Positions 101-23,940 of a DNA stretch of 27,026 nucleotides are shown piece after piece. Origin of the DNA: a virus. The stretch lies in UHGV virus genome UHGV-0327176; one strand, given 5' to 3'. The notes beneath the pieces were generated by a model. It ran no database searches. It worked only from the letters and a program-made list of their open reading frames with translations, and was not told where the DNA came from. The translations under genes were made by a program, and so were the position numbers. Position 1 is the first letter of the stretch; every line of letters starts with the position of its first letter.

Positions 101-267
101 TTGACCAAAATCGAAGTTACGAACAAGGAAGTGTCGAGCGAGCTTTAACGTGCGCTAACTGCGGTCAGAAGCTGCATGTGCTGGAAGTTCACGTGTGTGA
201 GCACTGCTGCGCAGAACTGATGAGCGATCCGAATAGCTCGATGCACGAGGAAGAAGACGATGGCTAA
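97..267 (+). CDS. ninF: NinF-like small protein with a 4-Cys motif (GTG start)
   Basis: Not in the ORF track (under 60 aa). Hand translation gives [56 protein letters not shown] then TAA. It sits between ninE and ninG as in lambda and overlaps the ninG ATG. Confidence 0.6.
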
Positions 268-871
268 ACCAGCGCGAAGACGATGTAAAAACGATGAATG
301 TCGGGAATGGTTTCACCCTGCATTCGCCAATCAGTGGTGGTGCTCTCCAGAGTGTGGAACCAAGATAGCTCTCGAACGACGAAGCAAAGAACGCGAAAAA
401 GCGGAAAAGGCAGCAGAGAAGAAACGACGACGAGAGGAGCAGAAACAGAAAGATAAACTTAAGATTCGAAAACTCGCCTTAAAGCCCCGAAGTTACTGGA
501 TTAAACAAGCCCAACAAGCCGTAAACGCCTTCATCAGAGAAAGAGACCGCGACTTACCATGTATCTCGTGCGGAACGCTCACGTCTGCTCAGTGGGATGC
601 CGGGCATTACCGGACAACTGCTGCGGCACCTCAACTCCGATTTGATGAACGCAATATTCACAAGCAATGCGTGGTGTGCAACCAGCACAAAAGCGGAAAT
701 CTCGTTCCGTATCGCGTCGAACTGATTAGCCGCATCGGGCAGGAAGCAGTAGACGAAATCGAATCAAACCATAACCGCCATCGCTGGACTATCGAAGAGT
801 GCAAGGCGATCAAGGCAGAGTACCAACAGAAACTCAAAGACCTGCGAAATAGCAGAAGTGAGGCCGCATGA
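260..871 (+). CDS. ninG: NinG (Rap) recombination-associated endonuclease
   Basis: 203 aa ORF. The sequence, with two Cys clusters (CKNDEC...CSPEC and CISCG...CVVCN), matches the lambda NinG protein as I remember it. Its stop overlaps the next gene's start (ATGA). Confidence 0.9.
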
Positions 872-1074
872 CGTTCTCAGTAAAAACCATTCCAGACATG
901 CTCGTTGAAGCATACGGAAACCAGACAGAAGTAGCACGCAGACTGAAATGTAGTCGCGGTACGGTCAGAAAATACGTTGATGATAAAGACGGGAAAATGC
1001 ACGCCATAGTCAACGACGTTCTCATGGTTCATCGCGGATGGAGTGAAAGAGATGCGCTATTACGAAAAAATTGA
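868..1074 (+). CDS. ninH: NinH small DNA-binding protein
   Basis: 68 aa [40 protein letters not shown]..., recalled as near-identical to lambda NinH, with a helix-turn-helix-like segment. Confidence 0.85.
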
Positions 1075-1717
1075 TGGCAGCAAATACCGAAATATTTGGG
1101 TAGTTGGCGATCTGCACGGATGCTACACGAACCTGATGAAAAAACTGGAGACGATAGGATTCGACACCAAAAAAGACCTGCTTATCTCGGTTGGCGATTT
1201 GGTCGATCGCGGTACAGAGAACGTTGAATGCCTGGAATTAATCACATTCCCCTGGTTCAGAGCTGTACGTGGAAACCATGAGCAAATGATGATTGATGGC
1301 TTATCAGAGCGTGGAAACGTCAATCACTGGCTGCTTAATGGCGGTGGCTGGTTCTTTAATCTCGACTACGACAAAGAAATTCTGGCTAAAGCTCTTGCCC
1401 ATAAAGCAGATGAACTTCCGTTAATCATCGAACTGGTGAGCAAAGATAAAAAATATGTCATCTGCCACGCCGATTATCCTTGTGACGAATACGAATTTGG
1501 AAAGCCAGTTGATCATCAGCAGGTAATCTGGAACCGCGAACGAATCAGCAACTCACAAGACGGGATCGTGAAAGAAATTAAAGGCGCGGACACGTTCATC
1601 TTTGGTCATACGCCAGCAGTGAAACCACTCAAGTTTGCCAACCAGATGTATATAGATACCGGCGCAGTGTTCTGCGGAAACCTCACATTGATTCAGGTAC
1701 AGGGAGAAGGCGCATGA
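1052..1717 (+). CDS. ninI: NinI Ser/Thr protein phosphatase (lambda PPase type)
   Basis: Metallophosphatase motifs GDLHG, GDLVDRG and GNHE are present. The sequence from [23 protein letters not shown] matches lambda phosphatase (221 aa). I chose the ATG at 1052; the ORF track starts at a GTG at 1043. Confidence 0.9.
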
Positions 1718-2337
1718 GACTCGAAAGCGTAGCTAAATTTCATTCGCCAAAAAGCCCGATGATGAGCGACTCACCACGGGCTACGGCTTCTGACTCTCTT
1801 TCCGGTACTGATGTGATGGCTGCTATGGGGATGGCGCAATCACAAGCCGGATTCGGAATGGCTGCATTCTGTGGTAAGCACGAACTCAGCCAGAACGACA
1901 AACAAAAGGCTATCAACTATCTGATGCAATTTGCACACAAGGTATCGGGGAAATACCGTGGTGTGGCAAAGCTCGAAGGAAATACTAAGGCAAAGGTACT
2001 GCAAGTGCTCGCAACATTCGCTTATGCGGATTATTGCCGTAGTGCCGCGACGCCGGGCGCAAGATGCAGAGATTGCCACGGTACAGGTCGGGCGGTTGAT
2101 ATAGCAAAAACAGAGCAGTGGGGGAGAGTTGTTGAGAAAGAGTGCGGAAGATGTAAAGGCGTCGGTTATTCAAGGATGCCTGCAAGCGCAGCATATCGCG
2201 CTGTGACGATGCTAATCCCAAATCTTACCCAACCCACCTGGTCACGCACTGTTAAGCCGCTGTATGACGCTCTGGTGGTGCAATGCCACAAAGAAGAGTC
2301 AATCGCAGACAACATTTTGAATGCGGTCACACGTTAG
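1714..2337 (+). CDS. Q: Late-gene antiterminator Q
   Basis: 207 aa [34 protein letters not shown]..., recalled as essentially lambda Q, including the zinc-binding CRDCHGTGR...CGRCKG region. Followed by a pR'-like promoter. Confidence 0.95.
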
Positions 2338-2379
2338 CAGCATGATTGCCACGGATGGCAACATATTAACGGCATGATA

Positions 2380-2408
2380 TTGACTTTTTGAATAAAGTTG
2401 GGTAAATT
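2380..2408 (+). promoter_or_regulatory. Late promoter pR' (-35 TTGACT, 17-bp spacer, -10 TAAATT) with adjacent qut region
   Basis: TTGACT at 2380-2385 and TAAATT at 2403-2408, immediately downstream of Q. The flanking sequence agrees with my memory of lambda pR'. Confidence 0.6.
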
Positions 2409-2548
2409 TGATCCAACGATGGGTTAATTCGCTCGTTGTGGTAGTGAGATGAAAAGAGGCGGCTCTTACTACCGATTCCGCCTAGTTGGTCAGTTCGACG
2501 TATCGTCTGGAACTCCAACCATCGCAGGCTGAGAGGTCTGCAAAATGC

Positions 2549-2609
2549 AATCCCGAAACAGTTCGCAGGTAATAGTTAGAGCCTGCACAACGGTTTCGGG
2601 ATTTTTTAT
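2549..2609 (+). terminator. tR'-like intrinsic terminator (end of the short pR' leader / 6S RNA)
   Basis: Inverted repeat aatcccgaaac (2549-2559) and gtttcgggatt (2593-2603) followed by a T-run to about 2607. Position relative to pR' is as in lambda. Confidence 0.5.
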
Positions 2610-2611
2610 TT

Positions 2612-2686
2612 GGGTCAGTCGTATAAAGGTAATTACGGAAGGCTGTTAACCTTCTTATCGTGGTTCGAGTCCACGCTGTCCCGCCA
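2612..2686 (+). tRNA. tRNA, predicted anticodon GTT (Asn)
   Basis: Hand-folded cloverleaf: acceptor gggtcag/ctgtccc (6 of 7 bp), perfect anticodon stem gaagg/ccttc, loop ctgttaa with U33 and anticodon GTT, perfect T-stem cgtgg/ccacg, T-loop ttcgagt, encoded 3' CCA. The D-stem is weak (3 bp). Confidence 0.7.
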
Positions 2687-2691
2687 AACAT

Positions 2692-2767
2692 GCTGGTTTA
2701 GCTCCAATGGTAGAGCAGTCGCCTTGTAAGCGAATGGGTAGCGGTTCAAGTCCGTTAACCAGCACCA
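2692..2767 (+). tRNA. tRNA, predicted anticodon TGT (Thr)
   Basis: Hand-folded cloverleaf: perfect 7-bp acceptor gctggtt/aaccagc, D-stem gctc/gagc, D-loop with GG, anticodon loop cttgtaa (anticodon TGT), T-stem agcgg/ccgtt, T-loop ttcaagt, discriminator A, encoded CCA. Confidence 0.8.
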
Positions 2768-2854
2768 TAACTGAGCCGTAGCCACTGGCTATCCTGGATT
2801 CATCAGTGATAGTTACGCTGCGGCCTTCTACACATGATCTTCGTGAAAGCGGGT

Positions 2855-2889
2855 GGCAGGAGGTCGCGCTAACAACCTCCTGCCGTTTT
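2855..2889 (+). terminator. Candidate intrinsic terminator downstream of the tRNAs
   Basis: Perfect 10-bp stem ggcaggaggt (2855-2864) / acctcctgcc (2875-2884) with a 10-nt loop, followed by gtttt. Confidence 0.4.
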
Positions 2890-3009
2890 GCCCGTGCATA
2901 TCGGTCACGAACAAATCTGATTGCTAAACACAGTAGCCTGGATTTGTTCTATCAGTAATCGACCTTATTCCTAATTAAATAGAGCAAATCCCCTTATTGG
3001 GGCTAAGAC

Positions 3010-3333
3010 ATGAAGATGCCAGAAAAACATGACCTGTTAGCCGCCATTCTCGCGGCAAAGGAACAAGGCATCGGGGCAATCCTTGCGTTTGCAATGGCGT
3101 ACCTTCGCGGCAGATATAATGGCGGTGCGTTTACAAAAACAGTAATCGACGCAACGATGTGCGCCATTATCGCCTGGTTCATTCGTGACCTTCTCGACTT
3201 CGCCGGACTAAGTAGCAATCTCGCTTATATAACGAGCGTGTTCATCGGCTACATCGGTACTGACTCGATTGGTTCGCTTATCAAACGCTTCGCTGCTAAA
3301 AAAGCCGGAGTAGAAGATGGTGGAAATCAATAA
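3010..3333 (+). CDS. S: Holin S (class I, dual-start S107/S105)
   Basis: 107 aa ORF beginning MKMPEKHD (Met1-Lys2-Met3 dual start), with three hydrophobic segments. Recalled as near-identical to lambda S. The upstream sequence ...caaatccccttattgggg... also matches lambda. Confidence 0.95.
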
Positions 3334-3793
3334 TCAACGTAAGGCGTTCCTCGATATGCTGGCGTGGTCAGAGGGAACTGATAACGGACGTCAGAAAACC
3401 AGAAATCATGGTTATGACGTCATTGTAGGAGGAGAGCTATTCACTGATTACTCCGATCACCCTCGCAAACTTGTCGCGCTAAACCCCAAACTCAAATCAA
3501 CAGCCGCCGGACGTTACCAGCTTCTTTCACGTTGGTGGGATGCCTACCGTAAGCAGCTTGGCCTGAAAGACTTCTCCCCCAAAAGCCAGGACGCTGTGGC
3601 ACTGCAACAGATTAAAGAGCGTGGCGCTTTACCAATGATTGATCGCGGTGATATTCGTCAGGCAATTGACCGTTGCAGCAATATCTGGGCTTCACTTCCG
3701 GGCGCTGGTTATGGTCAGTTCGAGCATAAGGCTGACAGCCTGATTGCAAAATTCAAAGAGGCTGGCGGAACGGTCAGAGAGATTGAGGTATGA
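3317..3793 (+). CDS. R: Endolysin R (lytic transglycosylase)
   Basis: 158 aa [42 protein letters not shown]..., recalled as lambda R. It overlaps the end of S as in lambda. Confidence 0.95.
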
Positions 3794-4227
3794 GCAGAGT
3801 AACCGCGATTATCTCCGCTCTGGTTATTTGCATCATCGTCTGCCTGTCATGGGCTGTTAATCATTACCGTGATAACGCCATCGCCTATAAAGAACAGCGC
3901 GATAAAGCCACGTCCATCATCGCTGACATGCAGAAGCGTCAACATGATGTAGCAGAACTCGACGCCAGATACACAAAGGAGCTTGCTGATGCTAACGCGA
4001 CTATCGAAAGTCTTCGTGCTGATGTTTCTGCTGGTCGTAAGCGCCTGCAAGTCGCCGCCACCTGTGCAAAGTCAACGACCGGAGCCAGCAGCATGGGCGA
4101 TGGAGAAAGCCCAGGACTTACAGCAGATGCTGAACTCAATTATTACCGTCTCCGAAGTGGAATCGACAGGATAACCGCGCAGGTTAACTACCTGCAGGAG
4201 TACATCAGGACTCAGTGCCTGAAATAA
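3790..4227 (+). CDS. Rz: Spanin inner-membrane subunit Rz (i-spanin)
   Basis: 145 aa ORF with an N-terminal transmembrane segment ([17 protein letters not shown]) and a coiled-coil periplasmic region. Lambda-Rz-like N-terminus, directly downstream of R. Confidence 0.85.
3983..4174 (+). CDS. Rz1: Spanin outer-membrane lipoprotein Rz1 (o-spanin), embedded in Rz in the +1 frame
   Basis: 63 aa ORF wholly inside Rz in another frame, with a signal peptide and lipobox-like LVVSAC followed by a proline-rich segment ([12 protein letters not shown]). This is the classic embedded Rz/Rz1 arrangement. Confidence 0.7.
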
Positions 4228-5778: not shown

Positions 5779-6276
5779 ATGGCAAAGCTCGCAGACAAAC
5801 AAGAGCTGTTTGCCCATCCGGATGATGTGTATGTCGGAGAGTGTGTGATTTATACCGGCTACATAAATAAGCGAGGGTATGGGCAGAAGCACATTTCACG
5901 AAAGCCGCACTACGCACATCGAATCGCATACTGCGAAGCTAACGGAATTTCGCTAGATAGCATCAAGGACCTGGTTGTTAGGCATAAATGCGATAATCCA
6001 TCATGCGTGAATCCTGACCATCTGATTATAGGTACTGTCGCTGACAATAATCGGGACAGGTCAAGGCGAGGCAGAAACTCATACCCTGACCGTTCAGGTG
6101 AAAAGAACGGAATGGCGAAATTAAAAGAGTGCGATGTCATCTGCATTCGCCGCGAGTATGTGCGCGGGAGTGTAGGTAATGGGCTTAGGTCTTTAGCAAA
6201 GAGATATGGCGTATCCACTACCATGATTGCTGACATCGTTAATCATAGAAATTGGAGCAATGTTTCGGAGGTGTGA
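5779..6276 (+). CDS. HNH endonuclease (terminase-associated)
   Basis: 165 aa ORF with the HNH-type motif HKCDNPSCVNPDHLIIGTVADN and a C-terminal helix-turn-helix-like segment (LAKRYGVSTTMIADIVNHRNW). GGAG ribosome-binding site upstream. Lies immediately before the small terminase. Confidence 0.8.
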   Translation: MAKLADKQELFAHPDDVYVGECVIYTGYINKRGYGQKHISRKPHYAHRIAYCEANGISLDSIKDLVVRHKCDNPSCVNPDHLIIGTVADNNRDRSRRGRNSYPDRSGEKNGMAKLKECDVICIRREYVRGSVGNGLRSLAKRYGVSTTMIADIVNHRNWSNVSEV

Positions 6277-15522: not shown

Positions 15523-16683
15523 ATGACGCAGGGCTTACCTGTATCCAACGTTGTAAACGTTGATGTGATCATCTCGCCGAAAGCGGCTACTGGTCGTAAC
15601 TTCGGCGCATTGCTAATCCTTGGCTCTTCCACTGTCATTCCGGTGACAGAACGTACTCGCCTATATGCTTCCATTGAGGACATTGGCGAAGACTTCGGTG
15701 TCGACAGCCCGGAATATAAAGCAGCGCAGGTTTTCTTCAGCCAGTCACCGAAGCCGACACAGGTTTATGTTGGTCGCTGGGCGAAGACGCTGAGTTCTTC
15801 CGAGAGTGGAGATACTGAAACTATCGTGCAAGCCGTTAATGCCTGCCTGCAATATACCAACTGGTATGGGCTGGTTGTCGCTGATGATGTTGTCGCTGGT
15901 GGCGATGTGCTTGATGCTGATGACGTGATTGAGGTCGCCAAACTTATTGAAGCGTCCAGCCTTAGCCGTATCTTTGGTGTGACCTCTGCCGACGCCGAGA
16001 TTATCAGCACGACTTCGACGACCGATGTTGCGTCGAAATTAAAGGCTGGCAAGTATGCCCGTACCTTTATTCAGTATTCCACCAGCAGCCCTTACGCAGC
16101 GGTTTCTGCTTTCGGTCGTGCGTTTACTGTCAATTTCAACGGCAGCAATACCACCATTACCCTGAAGTTCAAACAGGAACCAAGCGTAACCTACGAAACG
16201 TTGACGGTAGGCCAGGCGGCTGCGGTGGATACGAAGAATGCGAACGTGTTCGTGTACTACGCCAACGACACGGCGATCCTGCAACAGGGTGTCATGGCGA
16301 ACGGTGACTTCTTCGACGAGCGCCACGGGCTCGACTGGTTGCAGAACTACGTTCAGACCAACCTCTATAACCTGCTTTACACCAGCACCACCAAAATTCC
16401 GCAGACTGATGCCGGTGTTACCCGTCTGCTTTCCAACGTTGAAAAGTCCATGGATCAGTCCGTCACGAACGGTCTGGTTGCTGCTGGCGTGTGGAATGGT
16501 GGCCCTATCGGACAGCTGAATTCCGGCGATACGCTGACCAAAGGCTATTACGTGTATGCGCAACCGCTGTCCGAACAGGCGCAGGCCGACCGCGAAGCGC
16601 GCAAAGCACCGTTAATCCAGGTGGCCTGTAAGCTGGCTGGCGCAGTTCATTATGCCGATGTGCAGATCAACGTGGTTCGCTAA
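15523..16683 (+). CDS. Tail sheath protein (recalled as DUF3383-type)
   Basis: 386 aa ORF followed by a tube-sized gene, a chaperone and the tape measure. The N-terminus [30 protein letters not shown] resembles DUF3383 sheath proteins as I remember them. Confidence 0.65.
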
Positions 16684-17563: not shown

Positions 17564-17751
17564 CCTTCAATAGCCTGCCGGGCGGTGAAGATTTTATTCT
17601 TCGTCCGGCGCTTGCCTTCCATATTGACCAGAAAGACCTTAACAGCGGTGCGGTAGATCTTTGCCGCATCGCGCTTCTCAATGACTACCTCGACATGCGC
17701 GAGGATAACGACGCCCGGGTAGATAAATGGAGAGCGGCCAATGAGCGGTAA
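17138..17751 (+). CDS. Tail assembly chaperone, predicted -1 frameshift fusion (GT-like product)
   Basis: Slippery heptamer A_AAT_TTT at 17509-17515 in the zero frame (codons gga|aat|ttt, followed by a TTTTTT run). The -1 frame is open for 78 codons (17515-17748) and stops at TAA 17749-17751, overlapping the tape measure ATG at 17741. Hand-translated with no internal stops. Confidence 0.55.
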
Positions 17752-19753
17752 CGCAGATACGATTAAAGATTTCCTTGTTTCGCTGGGATTCGATATCGAT
17801 CAGGCTGGCGCTAATAAGTTTGAAGCCGTGCTGAAAGGTGTTACCGCGAACGTTCTGAAGGTCGGCGCGGTGGTGGAAGGCGCAGCGCTGAGCATTGTCG
17901 GATTTACCACCCAGATCGCGAATGGTCTGGATAAAATTTACTGGGCATCCCAGCGGACGGGGGCCAGCGTCCAGGGCATCAAAGCGCTGGGCTATGCCGC
18001 ATCGCAAACCGGTGCCAGCGCCGAGTCGGCTATGTCCTCCCTCGAAGGGCTGGCGGGGTTCATGCGTAGCAATCCGGGGGCGGAAGGCTTCCTGAACCGC
18101 CTGGGTGTCCAGACCCGTGATGCCAGCGGAAAGATGCGTGATACTGCGGCCATCTTTACTGGCGTTGGGCAAAAGCTCAACAACATGCCGTATTACCGCG
18201 CGAAGCAATACGCGCAGATGCTTGGCATCGATGAAAACACGCTGATGGCGATGCGGCGCGGCATGAATGGCTTTACCGCCGATTACCAGTCGATGCTGCA
18301 AAAGACAAGGTTCAACGCTGATAAAGCGGCTGTTCAGTCCAACAAATTCATGACGTCCATGCGCGGGCTTACGTCGCTGTTCGGCATCATGCGGGACAAG
18401 ATCGGCTCAAACCTCGCTGGTGGCCTGGCTGGTTCGCTGGACAGCCTGCGGCGGCGCATCCTCGACAATTTCCCGAAGATTGAAGAGACGCTTACCAGAG
18501 TTATTAACGGCGTGATCTGGCTTGCGAACGCATTCACGAGAATGGCGTGGCGGCTGATACAGGGCGCTGGCTCTGTCATCGACTGGTGGAAGCGTCTTGA
18601 CGATGGCAGTAAAAATCTGCTGAAAATATTCGGTGCTCTACTTGTCGCATGGCGTCTGCTTAATTCTGCGTTCCTGAAATCCCCGATTGGAATTATCACC
18701 ACGCTGATTCTGGCGATCGGATTACTCTATGACGATTACCAGACGTGGAAAGAGGGCGGAAAAAGCCTGATTGACTGGAGCAAGTGGGAACCAGCAATAG
18801 AAAAGGCGAAAAAGGCAATTATCTGGCTGCGAGATAAGCTGTTGGAGCTAAAAGATTCTGTCGGTGGGTGGCAGAACTCACTGGAAATTTTGGCTACCTT
18901 CATTGCAGGGGTATGGTTAAGCAAAATAACCTCTGCATTTGCTAAGTTAGCCGGAATACCTATGCCGCCATGGCTGAAGCTGTGGGCTATTTATGCCGGG
19001 TATCTGGTGGACGACAGGCATAATATTAAAGAAAGCGCTAAATCATCATGGGACTACACCAAAGGAAACATCGGAGATGCGCTCCGCTGGATGGGGTTTA
19101 ATACCGATTTTGGCCGCAATCCCAATACCGTGTATGGCGCGAATATTCAGTCAGATATTCCAGGCGCTGAACCGGAGCAATACGCCCAGTCAGTGAAGCG
19201 CCCACAAGCCACAGCCCAGGGTAAGGTATTGCTCGACTGGATGGGGCCAATGTTCAATAAACTGGAGTCGCTTTATCAGCTGCCAGCTGGCCTGTTGAAA
19301 AGCGTGGCGATCACCGAGTCGGGTGGTAACCAGTTCGCCATATCCGGCGCAGGCGCGAAAGGACTGTTTCAGTTTATGGATGGCACGGCGCGCGACATGG
19401 GCCTGCGTGGGAATGATGTATTCGACCCGGAAAAGTCAGCTCAGGCAGCCGCTAAGTACCTCAGCCAGCTGTTGCGGCAGAACGGCGGAGACCTTAGCAA
19501 AGCACTGGCATCATATAACTGGGGGATCGGGAATGTTAAGCGTTATGGAATGGGGCTAATGCCGCAGGAAACGCGCAATTACATTCCGAAAGTAATGAGC
19601 AATATGCCCACCAGCGCCCCGGTGATTCAGCAGGAAACGAACATTAACATCCACGGCGTTTCCGATCCTCGCGAAGCTGCCCGTTTGACTGTTGACCGTC
19701 AAAAGGGCGTGAATTCACAGTTAACCCAGCAACTCCCCGCAGGACCGAGATAA
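17741..19753 (+). CDS. Tape measure protein with a C-terminal lytic transglycosylase (SLT) motif
   Basis: 670 aa ORF after the chaperone, with hydrophobic segments in the middle (IFGALLVAWRLL, IITTLILAIGLLY). The segment ITESGGNQFAISGAGAKGLFQFMDGTARDMGL matches the catalytic-Glu-Ser lytic transglycosylase motif. Confidence 0.75.
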   Translation: MSGNADTIKDFLVSLGFDIDQAGANKFEAVLKGVTANVLKVGAVVEGAALSIVGFTTQIANGLDKIYWASQRTGASVQGIKALGYAASQTGASAESAMSSLEGLAGFMRSNPGAEGFLNRLGVQTRDASGKMRDTAAIFTGVGQKLNNMPYYRAKQYAQMLGIDENTLMAMRRGMNGFTADYQSMLQKTRFNADKAAVQSNKFMTSMRGLTSLFGIMRDKIGSNLAGGLAGSLDSLRRRILDNFPKIEETLTRVINGVIWLANAFTRMAWRLIQGAGSVIDWWKRLDDGSKNLLKIFGALLVAWRLLNSAFLKSPIGIITTLILAIGLLYDDYQTWKEGGKSLIDWSKWEPAIEKAKKAIIWLRDKLLELKDSVGGWQNSLEILATFIAGVWLSKITSAFAKLAGIPMPPWLKLWAIYAGYLVDDRHNIKESAKSSWDYTKGNIGDALRWMGFNTDFGRNPNTVYGANIQSDIPGAEPEQYAQSVKRPQATAQGKVLLDWMGPMFNKLESLYQLPAGLLKSVAITESGGNQFAISGAGAKGLFQFMDGTARDMGLRGNDVFDPEKSAQAAAKYLSQLLRQNGGDLSKALASYNWGIGNVKRYGMGLMPQETRNYIPKVMSNMPTSAPVIQQETNINIHGVSDPREAARLTVDRQKGVNSQLTQQLPAGPR

Positions 19754-21729: not shown

Positions 21730-21730
21730 T

Positions 21731-22081
21731 ATGACAAAAATTAGGAATGTTATCTGCGGAGCCGTTCTTTCGTTGGTCGGAGCTTCAACTGCAATGGCTG
21801 ATACCCAATGCGGGCCATATCGCCTCACCGCAGGTAATGATGGTTTTATGCATATTAATGGTGTAAAGCCAGAAAACCAGAAAATGACCTTTCTGAAAGC
21901 CAAGGAAGATTATCAAAATCTCAAGATGGAATGGACGGTTGCAACTAATCAACCCGGCCGCTGGGTTGGGCTTGAGTACATCAAGCGCAACGGCAAAGCC
22001 ATTCTCAACGCACAGTGGCTGCAAGCCAGCATGGATTCGCCGCGTCAGTATGCAACATACGACTGCCGAAAAGTAAAATAG
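21731..22081 (+). CDS. Moron: secreted (periplasmic) protein with a Sec signal peptide, unknown function
   Basis: ATG at 21731, 1 nt after the hub stop, with AGGTG upstream. The N-terminus MTKIRNVICGAVLSLVGASTAMA/DTQCG is a typical signal peptide with an AxA cleavage site. Two Cys in the mature part. GC content is lower than the flanking tail genes. Stop TAG at 22079-22081 runs into a GC hairpin. Confidence 0.6.
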   Translation: MTKIRNVICGAVLSLVGASTAMADTQCGPYRLTAGNDGFMHINGVKPENQKMTFLKAKEDYQNLKMEWTVATNQPGRWVGLEYIKRNGKAILNAQWLQASMDSPRQYATYDCRKVK

Positions 22082-22099
22082 CCCGCCAGATAGGCGGGC
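22081..22099. terminator. Shared hairpin between the convergent moron genes (intrinsic terminator for the - strand gene)
   Basis: Perfect 7-bp stem gcccgcc / ggcgggc with loop agata. On the - strand it is followed by TATTTTACTTTT; on the + strand it is preceded by an A-rich run. Confidence 0.55.
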
Positions 22100-22104
22100 A
22101 TGCG

Positions 22105-22395
22105 TCAAAAATATTGAGCTTTAATTATAATAAACACAATAATTACGAACAGGATGTTTCTAATTATTTTTTGCTTATGAGTAAGTTGTTTTTTTTCTGT
22201 CGATTTCCCGGGAGAGTAAAGGTTAGTGGTATGCGACAGCCCCGTGCCGGGAAGGCCATTTGTCATCTTTACGCCTTTTTTTCCGATGTTAATGGTGGAA
22301 CCTTTACCACCAATTGAAGTGCTTACTCCGCTTTTACTAATGTTGATCGCGAGTCCGGGCGCAATCCGGATTCTTTTACGAAATCTAAATCCCAT
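22105..22395 (-). CDS. Moron: small membrane-anchored protein, N-terminal domain recalled as DUF4236-like
   Basis: The only standalone - strand ORF in the window. Strong ribosome-binding site AGGAG 6 nt before the ATG (read on the - strand). The N-terminus MGFRFRKRIRIAPGLAINISKSGVSTSIGGKGSTINIGKKG...GLPGTGLS matches my recollection of the DUF4236 signature. C-terminal hydrophobic helix IIRNILFVIIVFIII. Very AT-rich 3' half. Confidence 0.65.
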   Translation of the reverse strand: MGFRFRKRIRIAPGLAINISKSGVSTSIGGKGSTINIGKKGVKMTNGLPGTGLSHTTNLYSPGKSTEKKQLTHKQKIIRNILFVIIVFIIIKAQYF

Positions 22396-22582
22396 TTGTT
22401 ACTCCTGTAGTCAATAATGCGATGGTGCAGGTCCACTCTATGGCGGCTTCATGGCTGAAATTGATTTTCAATGCTTACTTGTTGCAAACATATCCTAATA
22501 CACCTTGTGAATGTGTGCCATTGCAGCGGAAAAGCCTTACTTCACACTGATGTAGCTTAGTTACTAAGAGATAATTGATACC

Positions 22583-22607
22583 AAACCAGCTTCGGCTGGT
22601 TTTTTTA
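22583..22607 (+). terminator. Intrinsic terminator at the right edge of the moron island
   Basis: Stem accagc / gctggt (22585-22600) with loop ttcg, followed by a T-run of 6-7, about 10 nt upstream of the spike gene ATG. Confidence 0.55.
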
Positions 22608-22617
22608 TGGGGGTTTT

Positions 22618-23358
22618 ATGCCAATTCCAACTCAATCACAGATCGGGGGTGAGCAGCAGACCGCGCAGGCCATTGCCGATTCGGTGTCTACCCAGATGCG
22701 CGTAGCGATGCCCGGCATCATTCAGTCGTTCGATCCTGACACTGTTACCTGCACAGTAGAGGTAGCGCTTCGCGGTATTGTTGGCGATGGCTCCACCGAA
22801 TTAAAACCGCTGGTGGATGTGCCGGTTATCTTCCCGCGCGGCGGCGGTTGCACGCTGACCTTTCCGGTAAAAGAAGGCGACGAGTGCCTGCTGATCTTTG
22901 CCGACCGTTGCATCGATTTCTGGTGGCAGAGCGGCGGCGTTCAGGAGACCGTCGATCCGCGACAGCATGACTTATCTGATGCGTTCGCCATCGTTGGCCC
23001 GCAGTCGCAAGCACAGAAAATCAGCGGTATCAGTACCAGCGCCGCGCAGCTGCGAACCGATGATGGTGCGGCGTTCGTAGAGGTTGCCGCAGGACATAAC
23101 ATCACCGTTCAAACACCGGGCCAGCTCACGGCTACGGCTGAAGGTGGAACGACAATCACATCCCCGACTATCACGCTGAACGGCAACGTAACGATTAATG
23201 GCAATCTGTCTCAGGGAATGGGCGAAAGTGGCGGTACTGCGACGATGCTTGGGCCGGTGACGGTGACTAACGATGTGAAGGCTGGAGGAAAGAGCCTCAT
23301 CCAGCATACCCATGGCGGTGTGCAGAATGGCAGCGGGAATACTACCGCGCCTAATTAA
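22618..23358 (+). CDS. Baseplate spike protein (gpV / Mu gp45-like)
   Basis: 246 aa ORF with a Gly/Thr-rich C-terminal region typical of spike beta-helix proteins, and HTHGG near the C-terminus reminiscent of the His-containing apex motif. Lies upstream of W-, J- and I-like genes. Confidence 0.65.
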   Translation: MPIPTQSQIGGEQQTAQAIADSVSTQMRVAMPGIIQSFDPDTVTCTVEVALRGIVGDGSTELKPLVDVPVIFPRGGGCTLTFPVKEGDECLLIFADRCIDFWWQSGGVQETVDPRQHDLSDAFAIVGPQSQAQKISGISTSAAQLRTDDGAAFVEVAAGHNITVQTPGQLTATAEGGTTITSPTITLNGNVTINGNLSQGMGESGGTATMLGPVTVTNDVKAGGKSLIQHTHGGVQNGSGNTTAPN

Positions 23359-23377
23359 AAACTACCAAACAGACAAA

Positions 23378-23410
23378 AGCCCCGGGTGCGCTAACACTTC
23401 GGGGCTTTTT
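23378..23410 (+). terminator. Candidate intrinsic terminator after the spike gene
   Basis: Stem agccccg (23378-23384) / cggggct (23400-23406) with a 15-nt loop, followed by TTTTT. Confidence 0.45.
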
Positions 23411-23484
23411 ACTTTCTGCACCTTGAGGATAGCAAGGGAGAATATGTGATTAATTTTAGCAAACTGATACGGGAGTTGCGAGTC

Positions 23485-23583
23485 ATGGGCGAAAAACTAC
23501 CCAACTGGAAATTCTTCCTCATCTGGGCCGTGTTCTTTTTATTCGGTCTGTCAAGCGTTATTAGCGCTATACGCTGGTGGTGA
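23485..23583 (+). CDS. Small hydrophobic peptide (32 aa, single predicted transmembrane helix)
   Basis: Not in the ORF track (under 60 aa). ATG at 23485 preceded by GGGAG with a 9-nt spacer. Translates to MGEKLPNWKFFLIWAVFFLFGLSSVISAIRWW then TGA at 23581-23583, 3 nt before the next gene's ATG. Confidence 0.4.
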   Translation: MGEKLPNWKFFLIWAVFFLFGLSSVISAIRWW

Positions 23584-23586
23584 TTT

Positions 23587-23940
23587 ATGCGATACAGACG
23601 TGAAGACACCGACGGTGATTACACTTTCGGGCAGGGTGACGATACTTTCCTTATCGACAGTCCGGAATGTGTCGCCCAGGCAGTAAAAACCCGCTTCGAG
23701 CTGTGGCGCGGTCAGTGGTTTCTCGATCTGACGGAAGGCACGCCGTATGTTCAGTCGGTGCTTGGTAAACAGCGATCTGACGTCTACATCCTGGCTATAC
23801 GTGAACGCATACAGGACACACCGGGCGTTCTGTCGATTCTTTCCTTCGATACCAATTATGACGGCACCAGCCGTCGCGTCACCTTCACTTCCTCCATTGA
23901 CACAATCTACGGCCAGACGACTGTAACAAGCGAGGCATAA
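23587..23940 (+). CDS. Baseplate protein (gpW / gp25-like position)
   Basis: 117 aa ORF immediately upstream of the J-like gene (stop/start TAAATG). Called by size and order. Confidence 0.5.
   Translation: MRYRREDTDGDYTFGQGDDTFLIDSPECVAQAVKTRFELWRGQWFLDLTEGTPYVQSVLGKQRSDVYILAIRERIQDTPGVLSILSFDTNYDGTSRRVTFTSSIDTIYGQTTVTSEA

What the first reader, a model, noticed from the sequence alone, without database searches (positions are those of the whole stretch)
23378..23583. Unannotated 32-codon hydrophobic ORF with a strong ribosome-binding site between spike and W-like genes
MGEKLPNWKFFLIWAVFFLFGLSSVISAIRWW is a single transmembrane helix with Trp-rich ends. The ORF follows a terminator-like hairpin, has GGGAG at optimal spacing, and stops 3 nt before the next gene. 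It is below the ORF-track cut-off. Such peptides can be membrane toxins, holin-like or anti-holin factors, exclusion proteins or small virion components.
Basis: seen in the sequence. Interest (0 to 1): 0.45.

Follow-up and report, generated by a model that had tools for sequence, protein, structure and literature searches.

The report
Mobile small membrane-protein gene cassette
The short hydrophobic reading frame is a real, strongly conserved phage gene, but it is 45 codons long rather than 32, and it travels between phage late operons as a 228-bp cassette with its own upstream hairpin and probably an antisense control RNA; its function has never been studied, although about one in six complete E. 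coli genomes carries it.

Summary
ATG 23485 to TGA 23583 is open, GGGAG lies 9 nt upstream, a hairpin precedes it, and the next gene starts 3 nt after the stop.

The gene is longer than described. It starts at GTG 23446, has its own Shine-Dalgarno (SD) sequence, and encodes 45 aa. It matches PHROG phrog_6632 (function unknown) end to end. About 105 homologous loci are intact, with dN/dS about 0.19. Some records annotate it as a hypothetical protein.

It is a 228-bp, low-GC insertion between the spike gene and the W-like (sheath-initiator) gene. Its commonest site is between the endolysin and i-spanin genes of lambdoid prophages. These include Stx phages and 870 of 5,426 complete E. coli genomes. 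It also occurs in tail clusters of sipho- and podovirus-like phages and in Pseudomonas phages.

A covarying, bidirectional terminator-shaped hairpin always lies 34-41 nt upstream. Synonymous sites are frozen exactly where the minus strand reads TCGCAA-17 nt-TGCTAAAAT, an extended -10 promoter.

I infer a late-made, tail-anchored inner-membrane peptide. [quoted passage not shown] It is probably a lysis accessory. Neither function nor expression has been tested.

The parts
23359..23586 (+). The whole 228-bp cassette, inserted between the spike stop codon and the start of the W-like gene.
   Evidence: In a related prophage (UPEC957C, L103) the spike stop is separated from the W-like ATG by only 3 nt. 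Cassette GC is 45%, against 57% for the spike gene and 53% for the W-like gene. DNA similarity to lambdoid phage SPN3UB starts at the hairpin, near window position 23376.
23375..23410 (.). Hairpin shaped like a bidirectional intrinsic terminator: A-run 23375-23378, 27-nt stem-loop 23379-23405, T-run 23406-23410.
   Evidence: Present in every homologous cassette examined, ending 34-41 nt before the start codon (89 nt in L034 by the automated fold; an aligned hairpin lies closer), including in Pseudomonas-type phages. Covariation: 94.5% of cells are paired, 6 of 10 pairs show changes on both sides, and there are 42 double-change cells against 8.9 in shuffles (0 of 500 shuffles reach this). Hairpin folding energy is -15.5 kcal/mol.
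23411..23445 (+). Conserved 35-nt leader. It holds a small stem (CCTTG 23421-23425 with CAAGG 23433-23437) and SD1 (AAGGGAG 23434-23440; GGGAG ends 5 nt before the GTG).
   Evidence: The leader is conserved at nucleotide level across enteric and GC-rich clades. SD-like motifs lie 5-6 nt before the GTG or TTG in all unique sequences. The small stem appears in both the sense and the antisense folds.
23446..23583 (+). The 45-codon gene (GTG start, TGA stop): VINFSKLIRELRVMGEKLPNWKFFLIWAVFFLFGLSSVISAIRWW. It has an N-terminal amphipathic helix (residues 4-17), Pro19, and a C-terminal transmembrane helix (23-42).
   Evidence: phrog_6632 E = 3e-21 over positions 1-45 of 45. dN/dS is 0.19. 406 relatives in IMG/VR and 95 protein clusters. 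Hydropathy and hydrophobic moment; AlphaFold2 model.
23471..23487 (+). It would give a 32-aa product.
   Evidence: Met14 is invariant. In enteric members Arg9-Glu10 is always CGG GAG or AGG GAG (rare Arg codons that keep GGGAG), whereas Arg43 uses five different codons. The GC-rich clade has GAGGTG 6 nt before ATG14 instead. Three loci lack the upstream start (L082 GCG, L094 GTA, and deletion variant L047). Use of this start is inferred only.
23453..23481 (-). Predicted sigma-70 promoter for an antisense RNA, embedded in codons 3-12: -35 TCGCAA (23481 to 23476), 17-nt spacer, extended -10 TGC-TAAAAT (23461 to 23453).
   Evidence: TGCTAAnAT is present in 49 of 49 unique enteric and Pseudomonas modules, and the GC-rich metagenomic clade has TGCTAAGAT or TGCTAAACT. 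Third-position entropy is 0.17, 0 and 0 at codons 3-5 and 0 at codon 12. These are exactly the bases of the TG, of -10 positions 2 and 5, and of the first base of the -35. Neighbouring codons 6-8, 11 and 13 vary, with entropy 0.5-2.0. AT-rich or rare codons (GAT, CTT/TTT, CGA) are kept even in genomes of 60% GC. No transcript data exist.
23368..23446 (-). Predicted cis-antisense RNA of about 75 nt. It would start opposite the GTG, carry an anti-SD (UUCUCCCUUGC), and end at the hairpin plus UUUUGUCUGUUU.
   Evidence: Fold of the minus strand 23365-23452: -28.9 kcal/mol, z = -3.55, with a single-stranded 5' end, a small stem and the terminator stem. The consensus structure over 14 diverse homologues keeps both stems. 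Existence is inferred, not shown.
23587..23940 (+). Downstream W-like (sheath-initiator) gene. Its ATG lies 3 nt after the cassette's stop, and the TGGTGGTGA at the end of the small gene supplies an SD-like GGTGA.
   Evidence: In most loci the stop lies 1-3 nt before the next ATG, whether that gene is Rz or W-like. RefSeq names the orthologue 'contractile injection system sheath initiator'.

Best explanation
The region is a self-contained, horizontally mobile cassette (23359-23586). It was inserted into the Q-antiterminated late operon of a SEN34-like myovirus prophage that has a lambdoid regulatory backbone.

The cassette encodes a 45-aa protein of family phrog_6632, starting at GTG 23446. 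The protein has a conserved, positively charged amphipathic N-terminal helix in the cytoplasm and one C-terminal transmembrane helix that ends in RWW. This is a tail-anchored, N-in inner-membrane peptide.

Sense expression can only come from late transcription that reads through the upstream intrinsic terminator. There is no room for a sense promoter between the hairpin and the SD. Translation is tightly coupled to the next gene.

The first 12 codons also carry, on the other strand, an extended -10 promoter. I infer that it makes a cis-antisense RNA of about 75 nt. This RNA would cover the SD and the GTG and would be terminated by the same hairpin. That explains why an upstream terminator travels with the gene at a fixed distance. 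[quoted passage not shown] The peptide would then accumulate only late.

The family lives mainly between endolysin and i-spanin genes, so I propose that the peptide acts on the inner membrane at the lysis step. It could be an accessory depolariser or a lysis-timing factor, comparable in effect to hokW-sokW of Stx prophage Sp5.

Shown: the gene is real, conserved, mobile and membrane-type, and it has nucleotide-level constraints. Inferred: the antisense RNA, restriction to late expression, and the role in lysis.
For: The gene is real:
- Full-length match to phrog_6632.
- 406 IMG/VR relatives and 95 protein clusters.
- All of about 105 loci are intact.
- dN/dS is 0.19, with pS 0.73 in the transmembrane half.
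- Other frames carry stop codons.

The start is the GTG:
- The N-terminal 13 residues and SD1 are conserved.

The cassette is mobile:
- An empty site exists in L103, and the cassette has low GC.
- About 52 of 97 loci lie between an endolysin and the i-spanin Rz, next to at least five unrelated endolysin types. About 30 lie between spike and W-like genes in two myovirus lineages.
- Others lie between tail genes I and J, between K and I, after the tape measure gene, or before internal virion proteins.

Late read-through:
- The Q antiterminator (PF03589) is at 1714-2337, and all late genes are on the + strand.
- No sigma-70-like sense promoter was found.

Hairpin:
- It is universal, at a fixed distance, and covaries.

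Antisense promoter:
- The motif is present in all homologues, and the frozen synonymous sites coincide with its key bases, even in genomes of 60% GC.
- The minus-strand fold has z = -3.55.

Membrane topology.

Precedent for a prophage type I toxin that helps lysis: hokW-sokW (PMC8621323).
Against: - No transcript, ribosome-profiling, proteomic or phenotypic data were found for any family member.
- The -35 is weak (TCGCAA, 3 of 6). TGNTAAAAT alone occurs 3 times in the window against 0.8 expected, so the promoter rests on conservation only.
- Frozen 5' codons could instead reflect constraints on translation initiation, protein-level selection on the N-terminal helix, or frequent recombination in this segment. 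L097 looks recombinant.
- Type I toxins normally have their own promoter, and this gene has none.
- The occurrence in baseplate and tail clusters, in phages that already have complete lysis cassettes (window 3010-4227), weakens a specific role in lysis.
- The conserved part of the protein is the cytoplasmic helix, not the transmembrane segment. That is unlike simple pore-forming toxins.
- No hit in Pfam, NCBIfam or PADLOC.
Confidence: 0.45

Rival explanations
1. It is a superinfection-exclusion or DNA-entry-blocking moron. A small inner-membrane protein would prevent injection by related phages, in the manner of HK97 gp15 or T4 Imm (both recalled from my own knowledge).
For: It is a discrete low-GC insertion in late or tail operons. 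It often lies next to tail-tip, spike, tape-measure or ejection-protein genes. It is a membrane protein with a conserved cytoplasmic helix that could bind a host or phage partner. It is an accessory gene, since close relatives lack it.
Against: It has no sense promoter and is preceded by a strong terminator, so expression from a repressed prophage, which exclusion normally needs, is unlikely. Most copies sit in lysis cassettes, not tail clusters. It shows no similarity to known exclusion or defence proteins.
Confidence: 0.15
2. It is a dual-start lysis regulator. The 45-aa (GTG) and 32-aa (ATG14) products would act as an antagonist/effector pair that tunes holin triggering, by analogy with lambda S107/S105.
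For: Met14 is invariant. An SD-like motif precedes it in both clades: GGGAG kept by rare Arg codons in enteric members, and GAGGTG in GC-rich members. Three loci have lost the upstream start but keep the ATG14 frame. The family's position next to the endolysin fits. The predicted antisense RNA would block only the upstream start.
Against: Met14 sits in a heptad-like hydrophobic position of the amphipathic helix, so it may be conserved for structural reasons. The N-terminal 13 residues are the best-conserved part of the protein, which is not expected of a mere inhibitory extension. The protein has no holin-like charged C-terminal tail. There are no translation data.
Confidence: 0.12
3. It is a selfish or neutral passenger. 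The cassette would spread by recombination at gene boundaries, or persist as an addiction-type toxin/antisense pair, without helping the phage.
For: It has extreme positional promiscuity across myo-, sipho- and podovirus-like late operons. The same hairpin and leader head other, unrelated small transmembrane ORFs. Degenerate copies exist (L047, P0109, P0120).
Against: Purifying selection on the protein is strong (dN/dS 0.19) over a range from Enterobacterales to Pseudomonas and marine metagenomes. The precise translational coupling to the downstream gene suggests integration into operon expression.
Confidence: 0.13
4. It is not a protein gene. The conserved element would be an RNA or DNA signal (terminator plus sRNA), and the ORF would be incidental.
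For: The 5' third of the ORF and the leader are conserved at nucleotide level more than expected for coding alone (pS 0.24 against 0.73). The hairpin covaries.
Against: The 3' two-thirds show saturated synonymous change while hydrophobicity, length and the RWW end are preserved. There is not one premature stop in about 105 loci. Alternative frames are closed. An SD is conserved at the correct spacing.
Confidence: 0.05
5. It is a small structural or assembly component of the baseplate, as the location between the spike and W-like genes suggests.
For: Its position in the window, and its translational coupling to the W-like gene.
Against: Close relatives with the same spike and W-like genes lack it entirely. 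Most family members lie in lysis cassettes of tailed phages with unrelated tails. A hydrophobic transmembrane helix is atypical for a virion baseplate protein.
Confidence: 0.03

Closest known systems
PHROG family phrog_6632 (phage proteins of unknown function; examples are SEN34_23/YP_009191629.1 and WP_000459345.1)
   Same: End-to-end profile match (positions 1-45 of 45, E = 3e-21) with the same length and architecture. It is a member of this family.
   Different: Nothing differs in sequence terms. The family has no described function, and no paper was found.
Type I toxin-antitoxin systems, especially hok/sok and the prophage locus hokW-sokW of Stx2 prophage Sp5 (PMC8621323)
   Same: A small hydrophobic inner-membrane peptide carried by a prophage. 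A cis-antisense RNA is predicted to overlap the ribosome-binding site and end at an intrinsic terminator. A contribution to host lysis after induction is plausible.
   Different: There is no sequence similarity, no promoter for the peptide mRNA, and no mok-like leader ORF. The transmembrane helix is C-terminal and is preceded by a conserved cytoplasmic helix. The antisense RNA and the toxicity are untested.
Phage P22 sar antisense RNA acting on ant (recalled from my own knowledge; not checked with the tools)
   Same: A short antisense RNA that starts at the 5' end of a gene, covers its ribosome-binding site and stops at a terminator in the upstream intergenic space.
   Different: The P22 target is a soluble antirepressor in the immI region, not a small membrane protein in a late operon. 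The present RNA is only predicted.
Morons of lambdoid phages (for example HK97 gp15, lambda bor and lom; own knowledge, and Juhala et al. 2000 as cited in PMC4104026)
   Same: A discrete extra gene between conserved late genes. It has lower GC, is absent from close relatives, and encodes a membrane protein.
   Different: Classical morons carry their own promoter upstream and a terminator downstream, and are expressed in the lysogen. Here the terminator is upstream, no sense promoter is present, and the only promoter-like element points backwards.
Dual-start holin/antiholin genes (lambda S105/S107, phage 21 S68/S71; own knowledge)
   Same: A small membrane protein gene inside lysis cassettes, with two in-frame potential starts that each have an SD.
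   Different: The starts are 13 codons apart instead of 1-3. There is a single transmembrane helix with only 3 residues after it, so no charged C-terminal tail. The cassettes already contain a recognised holin.

Membership tests
phrog_6632 | Significant full-length match to the family profile | tested here: met
   E = 3.3e-21, 75.9 bits, residues 1-45 on profile positions 1-45 of 45. The Stx-phage homologue gives E = 1.2e-29.
Type I toxin-antitoxin system | Toxin is a small (under 60 aa) hydrophobic peptide with a transmembrane helix | tested here: met
   45 aa. Kyte-Doolittle hydropathy is 2.3 over residues 23-42. AlphaFold2 gives helix 20-44.
Type I toxin-antitoxin system | An antisense RNA gene (own promoter and terminator) overlaps the toxin mRNA | tested here: inconclusive
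   A conserved minus-strand signal, TCGCAA-17 nt-TGCTAAAAT, is present. The frozen synonymous sites coincide with it. A covarying hairpin shaped as a bidirectional terminator lies downstream of it. No transcript evidence was available.
Type I toxin-antitoxin system | The toxin mRNA is made from its own promoter | tested here: not met
   Only about 35 nt lie between the terminator T-run and the start codon. The consensus scan finds no sense promoter. In the window the hairpin starts 20 nt after the spike stop codon.
Type I toxin-antitoxin system | The peptide is toxic when over-expressed and is neutralised by the RNA | not testable with these tools
   This needs inducible expression with and without the antisense RNA.
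Moron (lambdoid extra-gene cassette) | Discrete insertion between genes that are adjacent in relatives, with deviant base composition | tested here: met
   Empty site in L103, with 3 nt between the spike and W-like genes. Cassette GC is 45% against 53-57% in the flanks.
Moron (lambdoid extra-gene cassette) | Own promoter upstream and terminator downstream, allowing expression from the repressed prophage | tested here: not met
   The terminator is upstream. The stop codon lies 1-3 nt from the next gene's ATG. No sense promoter was found.
Holin | Transmembrane domain(s) followed by a hydrophilic, highly charged C-terminal tail | tested here: not met
   Only RWW follows the transmembrane helix.
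Holin | Encoded in the lysis cassette as the only candidate for the membrane lesion | tested here: not met
   In the window the gene is 19 kb from the lysis cassette, which has its own lambda-S-type holin (PF05106) at 3010-3333. The lambdoid loci also have a separate holin.
Spanin (Rz/Rz1) | Periplasmic coiled-coil domain (i-spanin) or lipobox (o-spanin) | tested here: not met
   Three periplasmic residues, no lipobox, and no PF03245 hit. A separate Rz gene follows it in the lambdoid loci.
Known anti-phage defence proteins (PADLOC-DB) | Match to a defence-system profile | tested here: not met
   No hit at E up to 1 for three diverse family members.

The most novel reading that the evidence does not exclude
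This is an unrecognised class of antisense-controlled small membrane-peptide cassettes. Each is built as bidirectional terminator, leader, then an ORF with a backward promoter written into its first codons. The cassettes hop between late operons of myo-, sipho- and podoviruses from Enterobacterales to Pseudomonas. The peptide, possibly in two isoforms (45 and 32 aa), acts as a lysis-timing or membrane-depolarising factor. If so, many Stx-converting phages, and the prophages of about 16% of complete E. coli genomes, carry an overlooked additional component of the canonical holin-endolysin-spanin lysis cassette, one governed by RNA.
Probability: 0.3. Interest if true: 0.7.

Novelty: new variant of a known kind. 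Interest (0 to 1): 0.55.

Why it matters
The lambdoid holin-endolysin-spanin cassette is one of the best-studied gene sets in phage biology. It controls the release of Shiga toxin from Stx phages. Despite this, a conserved 45-codon gene between R and Rz is skipped by most annotations and has no published function. It is present in 870 of 5,426 complete E. coli genomes and in many Salmonella prophages.

If the peptide modulates lysis timing or membrane integrity, it bears on burst size, on toxin release and on phage engineering. If the embedded antisense promoter is real, the cassette is a compact example of three overlapping codes (protein, backward promoter, internal ribosome-binding site). 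It would also be a new way in which toxin-like peptides are kept silent inside prophage late operons.

The case also shows that ORF-length cut-offs hide mobile genes that recur across phage morphotypes.

Tried and rejected
- Rfam, whole window at gathering score and the local region at E up to 10: only two tRNAs and sub-threshold chance hits. Three lambdoid loci gave nothing.
- Pfam, NCBIfam and PADLOC on the peptide: no family.
- Minus-strand 66-aa ORF (23409-23609): rejected, because that frame has stop codons in 30 of 43 unique homologues.
- Link to the Pas, AgvB and AsxR prophage sRNAs: rejected. PasA lies between the esterase and holin genes, and the anti-sRNAs lie at the pR' moron site, not at the R-Rz junction.
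- Literature searches by family id, accession numbers and peptide strings, and searches of the supplements of Salmonella and EHEC small-protein, ribosome-profiling and TSS papers: nothing found.
- Locating the Sakai or EDL933 copies so that published coordinates could be used: neither strain was among the 60 best E. coli hits, so I gave this up.
- The consensus promoter/terminator scan missed both the hairpin (its loop and stem rules are too strict) and the extended -10 promoter (it requires two hexamers).
- An RNA stem between codons 5-6 and 11-12 was considered by eye and dropped, because Ile11 variants break it.
- Structure search was not attempted. A two-helix 45-mer would give meaningless matches.
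Full report
**1. The observation**

- ATG 23485 opens a 32-codon frame that ends at TGA 23581-23583.
- GGGAG (23471-23475) lies 9 nt upstream of that ATG.
- A G+C-rich hairpin (stem-loop 23379-23405, A-run 23375-23378, T-run 23406-23410) follows the spike stop codon (23356-23358).
- The next gene starts at 23587.

The neighbours are a spike protein (spike N-terminal domain plus GpV apex motif), then a W-like gene, Baseplate_J and DUF2612. The W-like gene has no Pfam hit; RefSeq names its orthologue 'contractile injection system sheath initiator'.

An ORF of this size is not unusual by chance: 67 ORFs of at least 25 aa overlap the surrounding 5 kb. Everything therefore depends on comparison with relatives.

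**2. The true gene**

The frame is open from GTG 23446. AAGGGAG lies upstream, with GGGAG ending 5 nt before the GTG.

Every relative shares the 13 extra residues (consensus xDFSKLIRELRxM). These are the best-conserved part of the protein.

The 45-aa protein matches PHROG phrog_6632 (unknown function) over positions 1-45 of 45, with E = 3e-21. Pfam, NCBIfam and PADLOC give nothing.

The gene is annotated as hypothetical in Salmonella phage SEN34 (SEN34_23) and in some RefSeq E. coli genomes (WP_000459345.1). The identical 45-aa protein exists in NCBI. Some gene callers report the 32-aa form. The nearest RefSeq record (99.8% identical DNA) leaves it unannotated.

**3. Selection**

I recovered about 105 homologous loci from phage records, E. 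coli genomes, GTDB species genomes, IMG/VR (406 relatives there) and metagenomes. All of those not cut by a contig end are intact, at 44-49 codons.
- On 44 unique 45-codon sequences, Nei-Gojobori dN/dS is 0.19. In the transmembrane half, pS is 0.73 and pN is 0.24.
- The two other plus-strand frames have stop codons in all relatives. The minus-strand 66-aa ORF frame has stop codons in 30 of 43.
- A few decayed copies exist (L047, P0109, P0120), as expected for cryptic prophages.

This is a protein-coding gene.

**4. The protein**

Residues 23-42 form a transmembrane helix (Kyte-Doolittle 2.3). Residues 2-18 form an amphipathic helix (hydrophobic moment 0.5-0.6) with net charge +3. Only RWW follows the membrane segment.

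AlphaFold2 on a 30-sequence alignment gives helix 4-17, a break at Leu18-Pro19, and helix 20-44, with pLDDT 81.

By the positive-inside rule this is an N-in, tail-anchored inner-membrane peptide. This is an inference.

**5. It is a mobile cassette**

A related prophage (UPEC957C) has the spike stop and the W-like ATG only 3 nt apart. The window therefore carries a 228-bp insertion (23359-23586). Its GC is 45%, against 53-57% in the flanks.

Among 97 classified loci:
- About 52 lie between an endolysin and the i-spanin Rz of lambdoid phages. These sit next to at least five unrelated endolysin types: GH24 SAR-type R, GH108, GH19, an 'NNNPGNIR' type, and an M15 peptidase.
- About 30 lie between spike and W-like genes, in two different myovirus lineages (SEN34-like and Rac-SA53-like).
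- The rest lie between lambda-like tail genes I and J, between K and I in a Pseudomonas siphovirus, directly after a tape measure gene, after head genes in a marine contig, or before internal virion proteins.

The lambdoid version, found in Stx1- and Stx2-converting phages, H-19B and SPN3UB, occurs in 870 of 5,426 complete E. coli genomes. PGAP usually leaves it unannotated.

In most loci the stop lies 1-3 nt before the next ATG.

**6. The hairpin belongs to the cassette**

Every cassette, including the copies in genomes of 58-61% GC, has a G+C-rich stem-loop flanked by an A-run and a T-run. It ends 34-41 nt before the start codon (89 nt in L034 by the automated fold; an aligned hairpin lies closer).

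On a 40-sequence alignment, 94.5% of cells pair and 6 of 10 pairs show compensatory double changes. There are 42 double-change cells against 8.9 in shuffles (0 of 500), and slid controls fall to 35-58% paired.

No sense promoter fits in the 35-nt leader.

The window phage has a lambda-type Q antiterminator (PF03589, 1714-2337) and a single-strand late operon. Essential baseplate and fibre genes downstream of this terminator must therefore be reached by antiterminated transcription. This is an inference from established lambda biology.

**7. Extra nucleotide-level constraint in the first 12 codons**

Synonymous diversity is 0.24 in codons 2-13, against 0.73 in codons 23-45.

Third-position entropy is 0.17, 0 and 0 at codons 3, 4 and 5, and 0 at codons 10 and 12. 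It is 0.5-2.0 at codons 6-9, 11 and 13.

Read on the minus strand, codons 3-6 give TTTGCTAAAATC. This is an extended -10 element, TGC-TAAAAT (window 23461 to 23453). Codons 11-12 give TCGCAA exactly 17 nt upstream.

The frozen sites are precisely the G of the TG, -10 positions 2 and 5, and the first base of the -35.

The motif (TGCTAAnAT, or TGCTAAACT in one lineage) is present in all 49 unique enteric and Pseudomonas modules and in the metagenomic GC-rich clade. That clade keeps GAT, CTT/TTT, AGC and the rare CGA, while its neighbouring codons have shifted to GC-rich synonyms.

A transcript started about 7 nt downstream would begin opposite the GTG. It would carry an anti-SD (UUCUCCCUUGC) and run into the hairpin, whose other face is followed by UUUUGUCUGUUU. 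That gives an RNA of about 75 nt. The minus strand folds at -28.9 kcal/mol with z = -3.55, and the two stems recur in a 14-sequence consensus.

This gives a reason why an upstream terminator travels with the gene at a fixed distance. It is an inference. The motif alone is weak evidence (3 matches in the window against 0.8 expected), and I found no transcript data.

**8. A possible second start**

In enteric members Arg9-Glu10 is always CGG GAG or AGG GAG. These are rare Arg codons that preserve GGGAG. In the same sequences Arg43 uses five different codons.

The GC-rich clade lacks GGGAG but has GAGGTG 6 nt before ATG14.

Three loci have lost the upstream start.

A 32-aa isoform is therefore possible. 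However, Met14 also occupies a hydrophobic position of the amphipathic helix.

**9. What it most likely does**

I commit to the following model. A late-expressed, antisense-restrained inner-membrane peptide acts at the lysis stage.

The reasons are:
- its dominant location between endolysin and spanin genes, whatever the endolysin family;
- the double safeguard of terminator plus antisense RNA, which is typical of harmful membrane peptides;
- the experimentally shown precedent of hokW-sokW in Stx prophage Sp5, which speeds lysis and doubles phage release (PMC8621323).

Confidence in the complete model is about 0.45. Confidence that this is a real, mobile membrane-protein gene that starts at GTG 23446 is about 0.9.

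The rivals are superinfection exclusion (0.15), a selfish passenger (0.13), a dual-start regulator (0.12), an RNA-only element (0.05) and a virion part (0.03).

**10. Comparison with known systems**

It is a member of phrog_6632.

It resembles type I toxin-antitoxin loci and the P22 sar arrangement, but it lacks a promoter for the peptide mRNA.

It resembles morons, but with the terminator on the 'wrong' side.

It fails the holin and spanin criteria.

I therefore rate it a new variant of a known kind. No publication on the family was found.

Noticed in passing
window 21730-22617: A low-GC (43.5%) cargo island lies between the baseplate hub and spike genes. It holds a 116-aa ORF with a signal-peptide-like N-terminus (21731-22081, + strand) and a DUF4236 protein on the minus strand (22105-22395). 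Terminator-like hairpins bracket it at 22081-22099 (-) and 22583-22602 (+). Relatives carry different genes at this site.
   Followed up: partly
L102 1673-2001; L009 827-1077; L004 2305-2415: The lambdoid endolysin-Rz junction is a hotspot for alternative small transmembrane ORFs. A 60-aa ORF (MAKCKRILL...LVIALKS) uses the same hairpin and leader as the cassette studied here. It is followed by a 43-aa ORF (MSDKLITLAK...). SPN3UB has a further 36-aa hydrophobic ORF that overlaps the end of its lysozyme gene.
   Followed up: partly
L005 2356-2465; L004 2416-2505; L102 1517-1607: A conserved non-coding stretch of about 110 nt (aaaaatgc...cacgcgggcggataacac...) lies between the endolysin stop and the hairpin in lambdoid phages. 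It is more widespread than the small gene itself (about 2,000 E. coli genomes). It could be a 3'-UTR-derived sRNA that ends at the same hairpin. It has no Rfam match.
   Followed up: partly
L047 about 3990-4120: This is a deletion variant in a SEN34-like prophage. The spike stop codon TAA is followed directly by codon 7 of the small gene. The hairpin, leader, GTG and predicted antisense promoter are all gone, and only the internal ATGs remain.
   Followed up: no
window 2612-2767: tRNA-Asn (gtt) and tRNA-Thr (tgt) lie between the Q antiterminator gene (1714-2337) and the holin gene (3010). This is the position where lambdoid and Stx phages carry tRNAs and morons.
   Followed up: no
window 1-27026: The prophage is a hybrid. 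It has a lambdoid NinG-Q-holin-endolysin-Rz regulatory and lysis module (260-4227). This is joined to a SEN34-like contractile-tail structural module (sheath DUF3383 at 15523-16683, tape measure with an SLT domain at 17741-19753). An HNH endonuclease (5779-6276) lies next to the terminase region.
   Followed up: partly
L001 (NZ_CP021535.1), between locus tags AM366_RS16810 and AM366_RS16800: The RefSeq locus-tag series skips RS16805 exactly where the small gene lies. This suggests that a gene call was once made there and later dropped.
   Followed up: no
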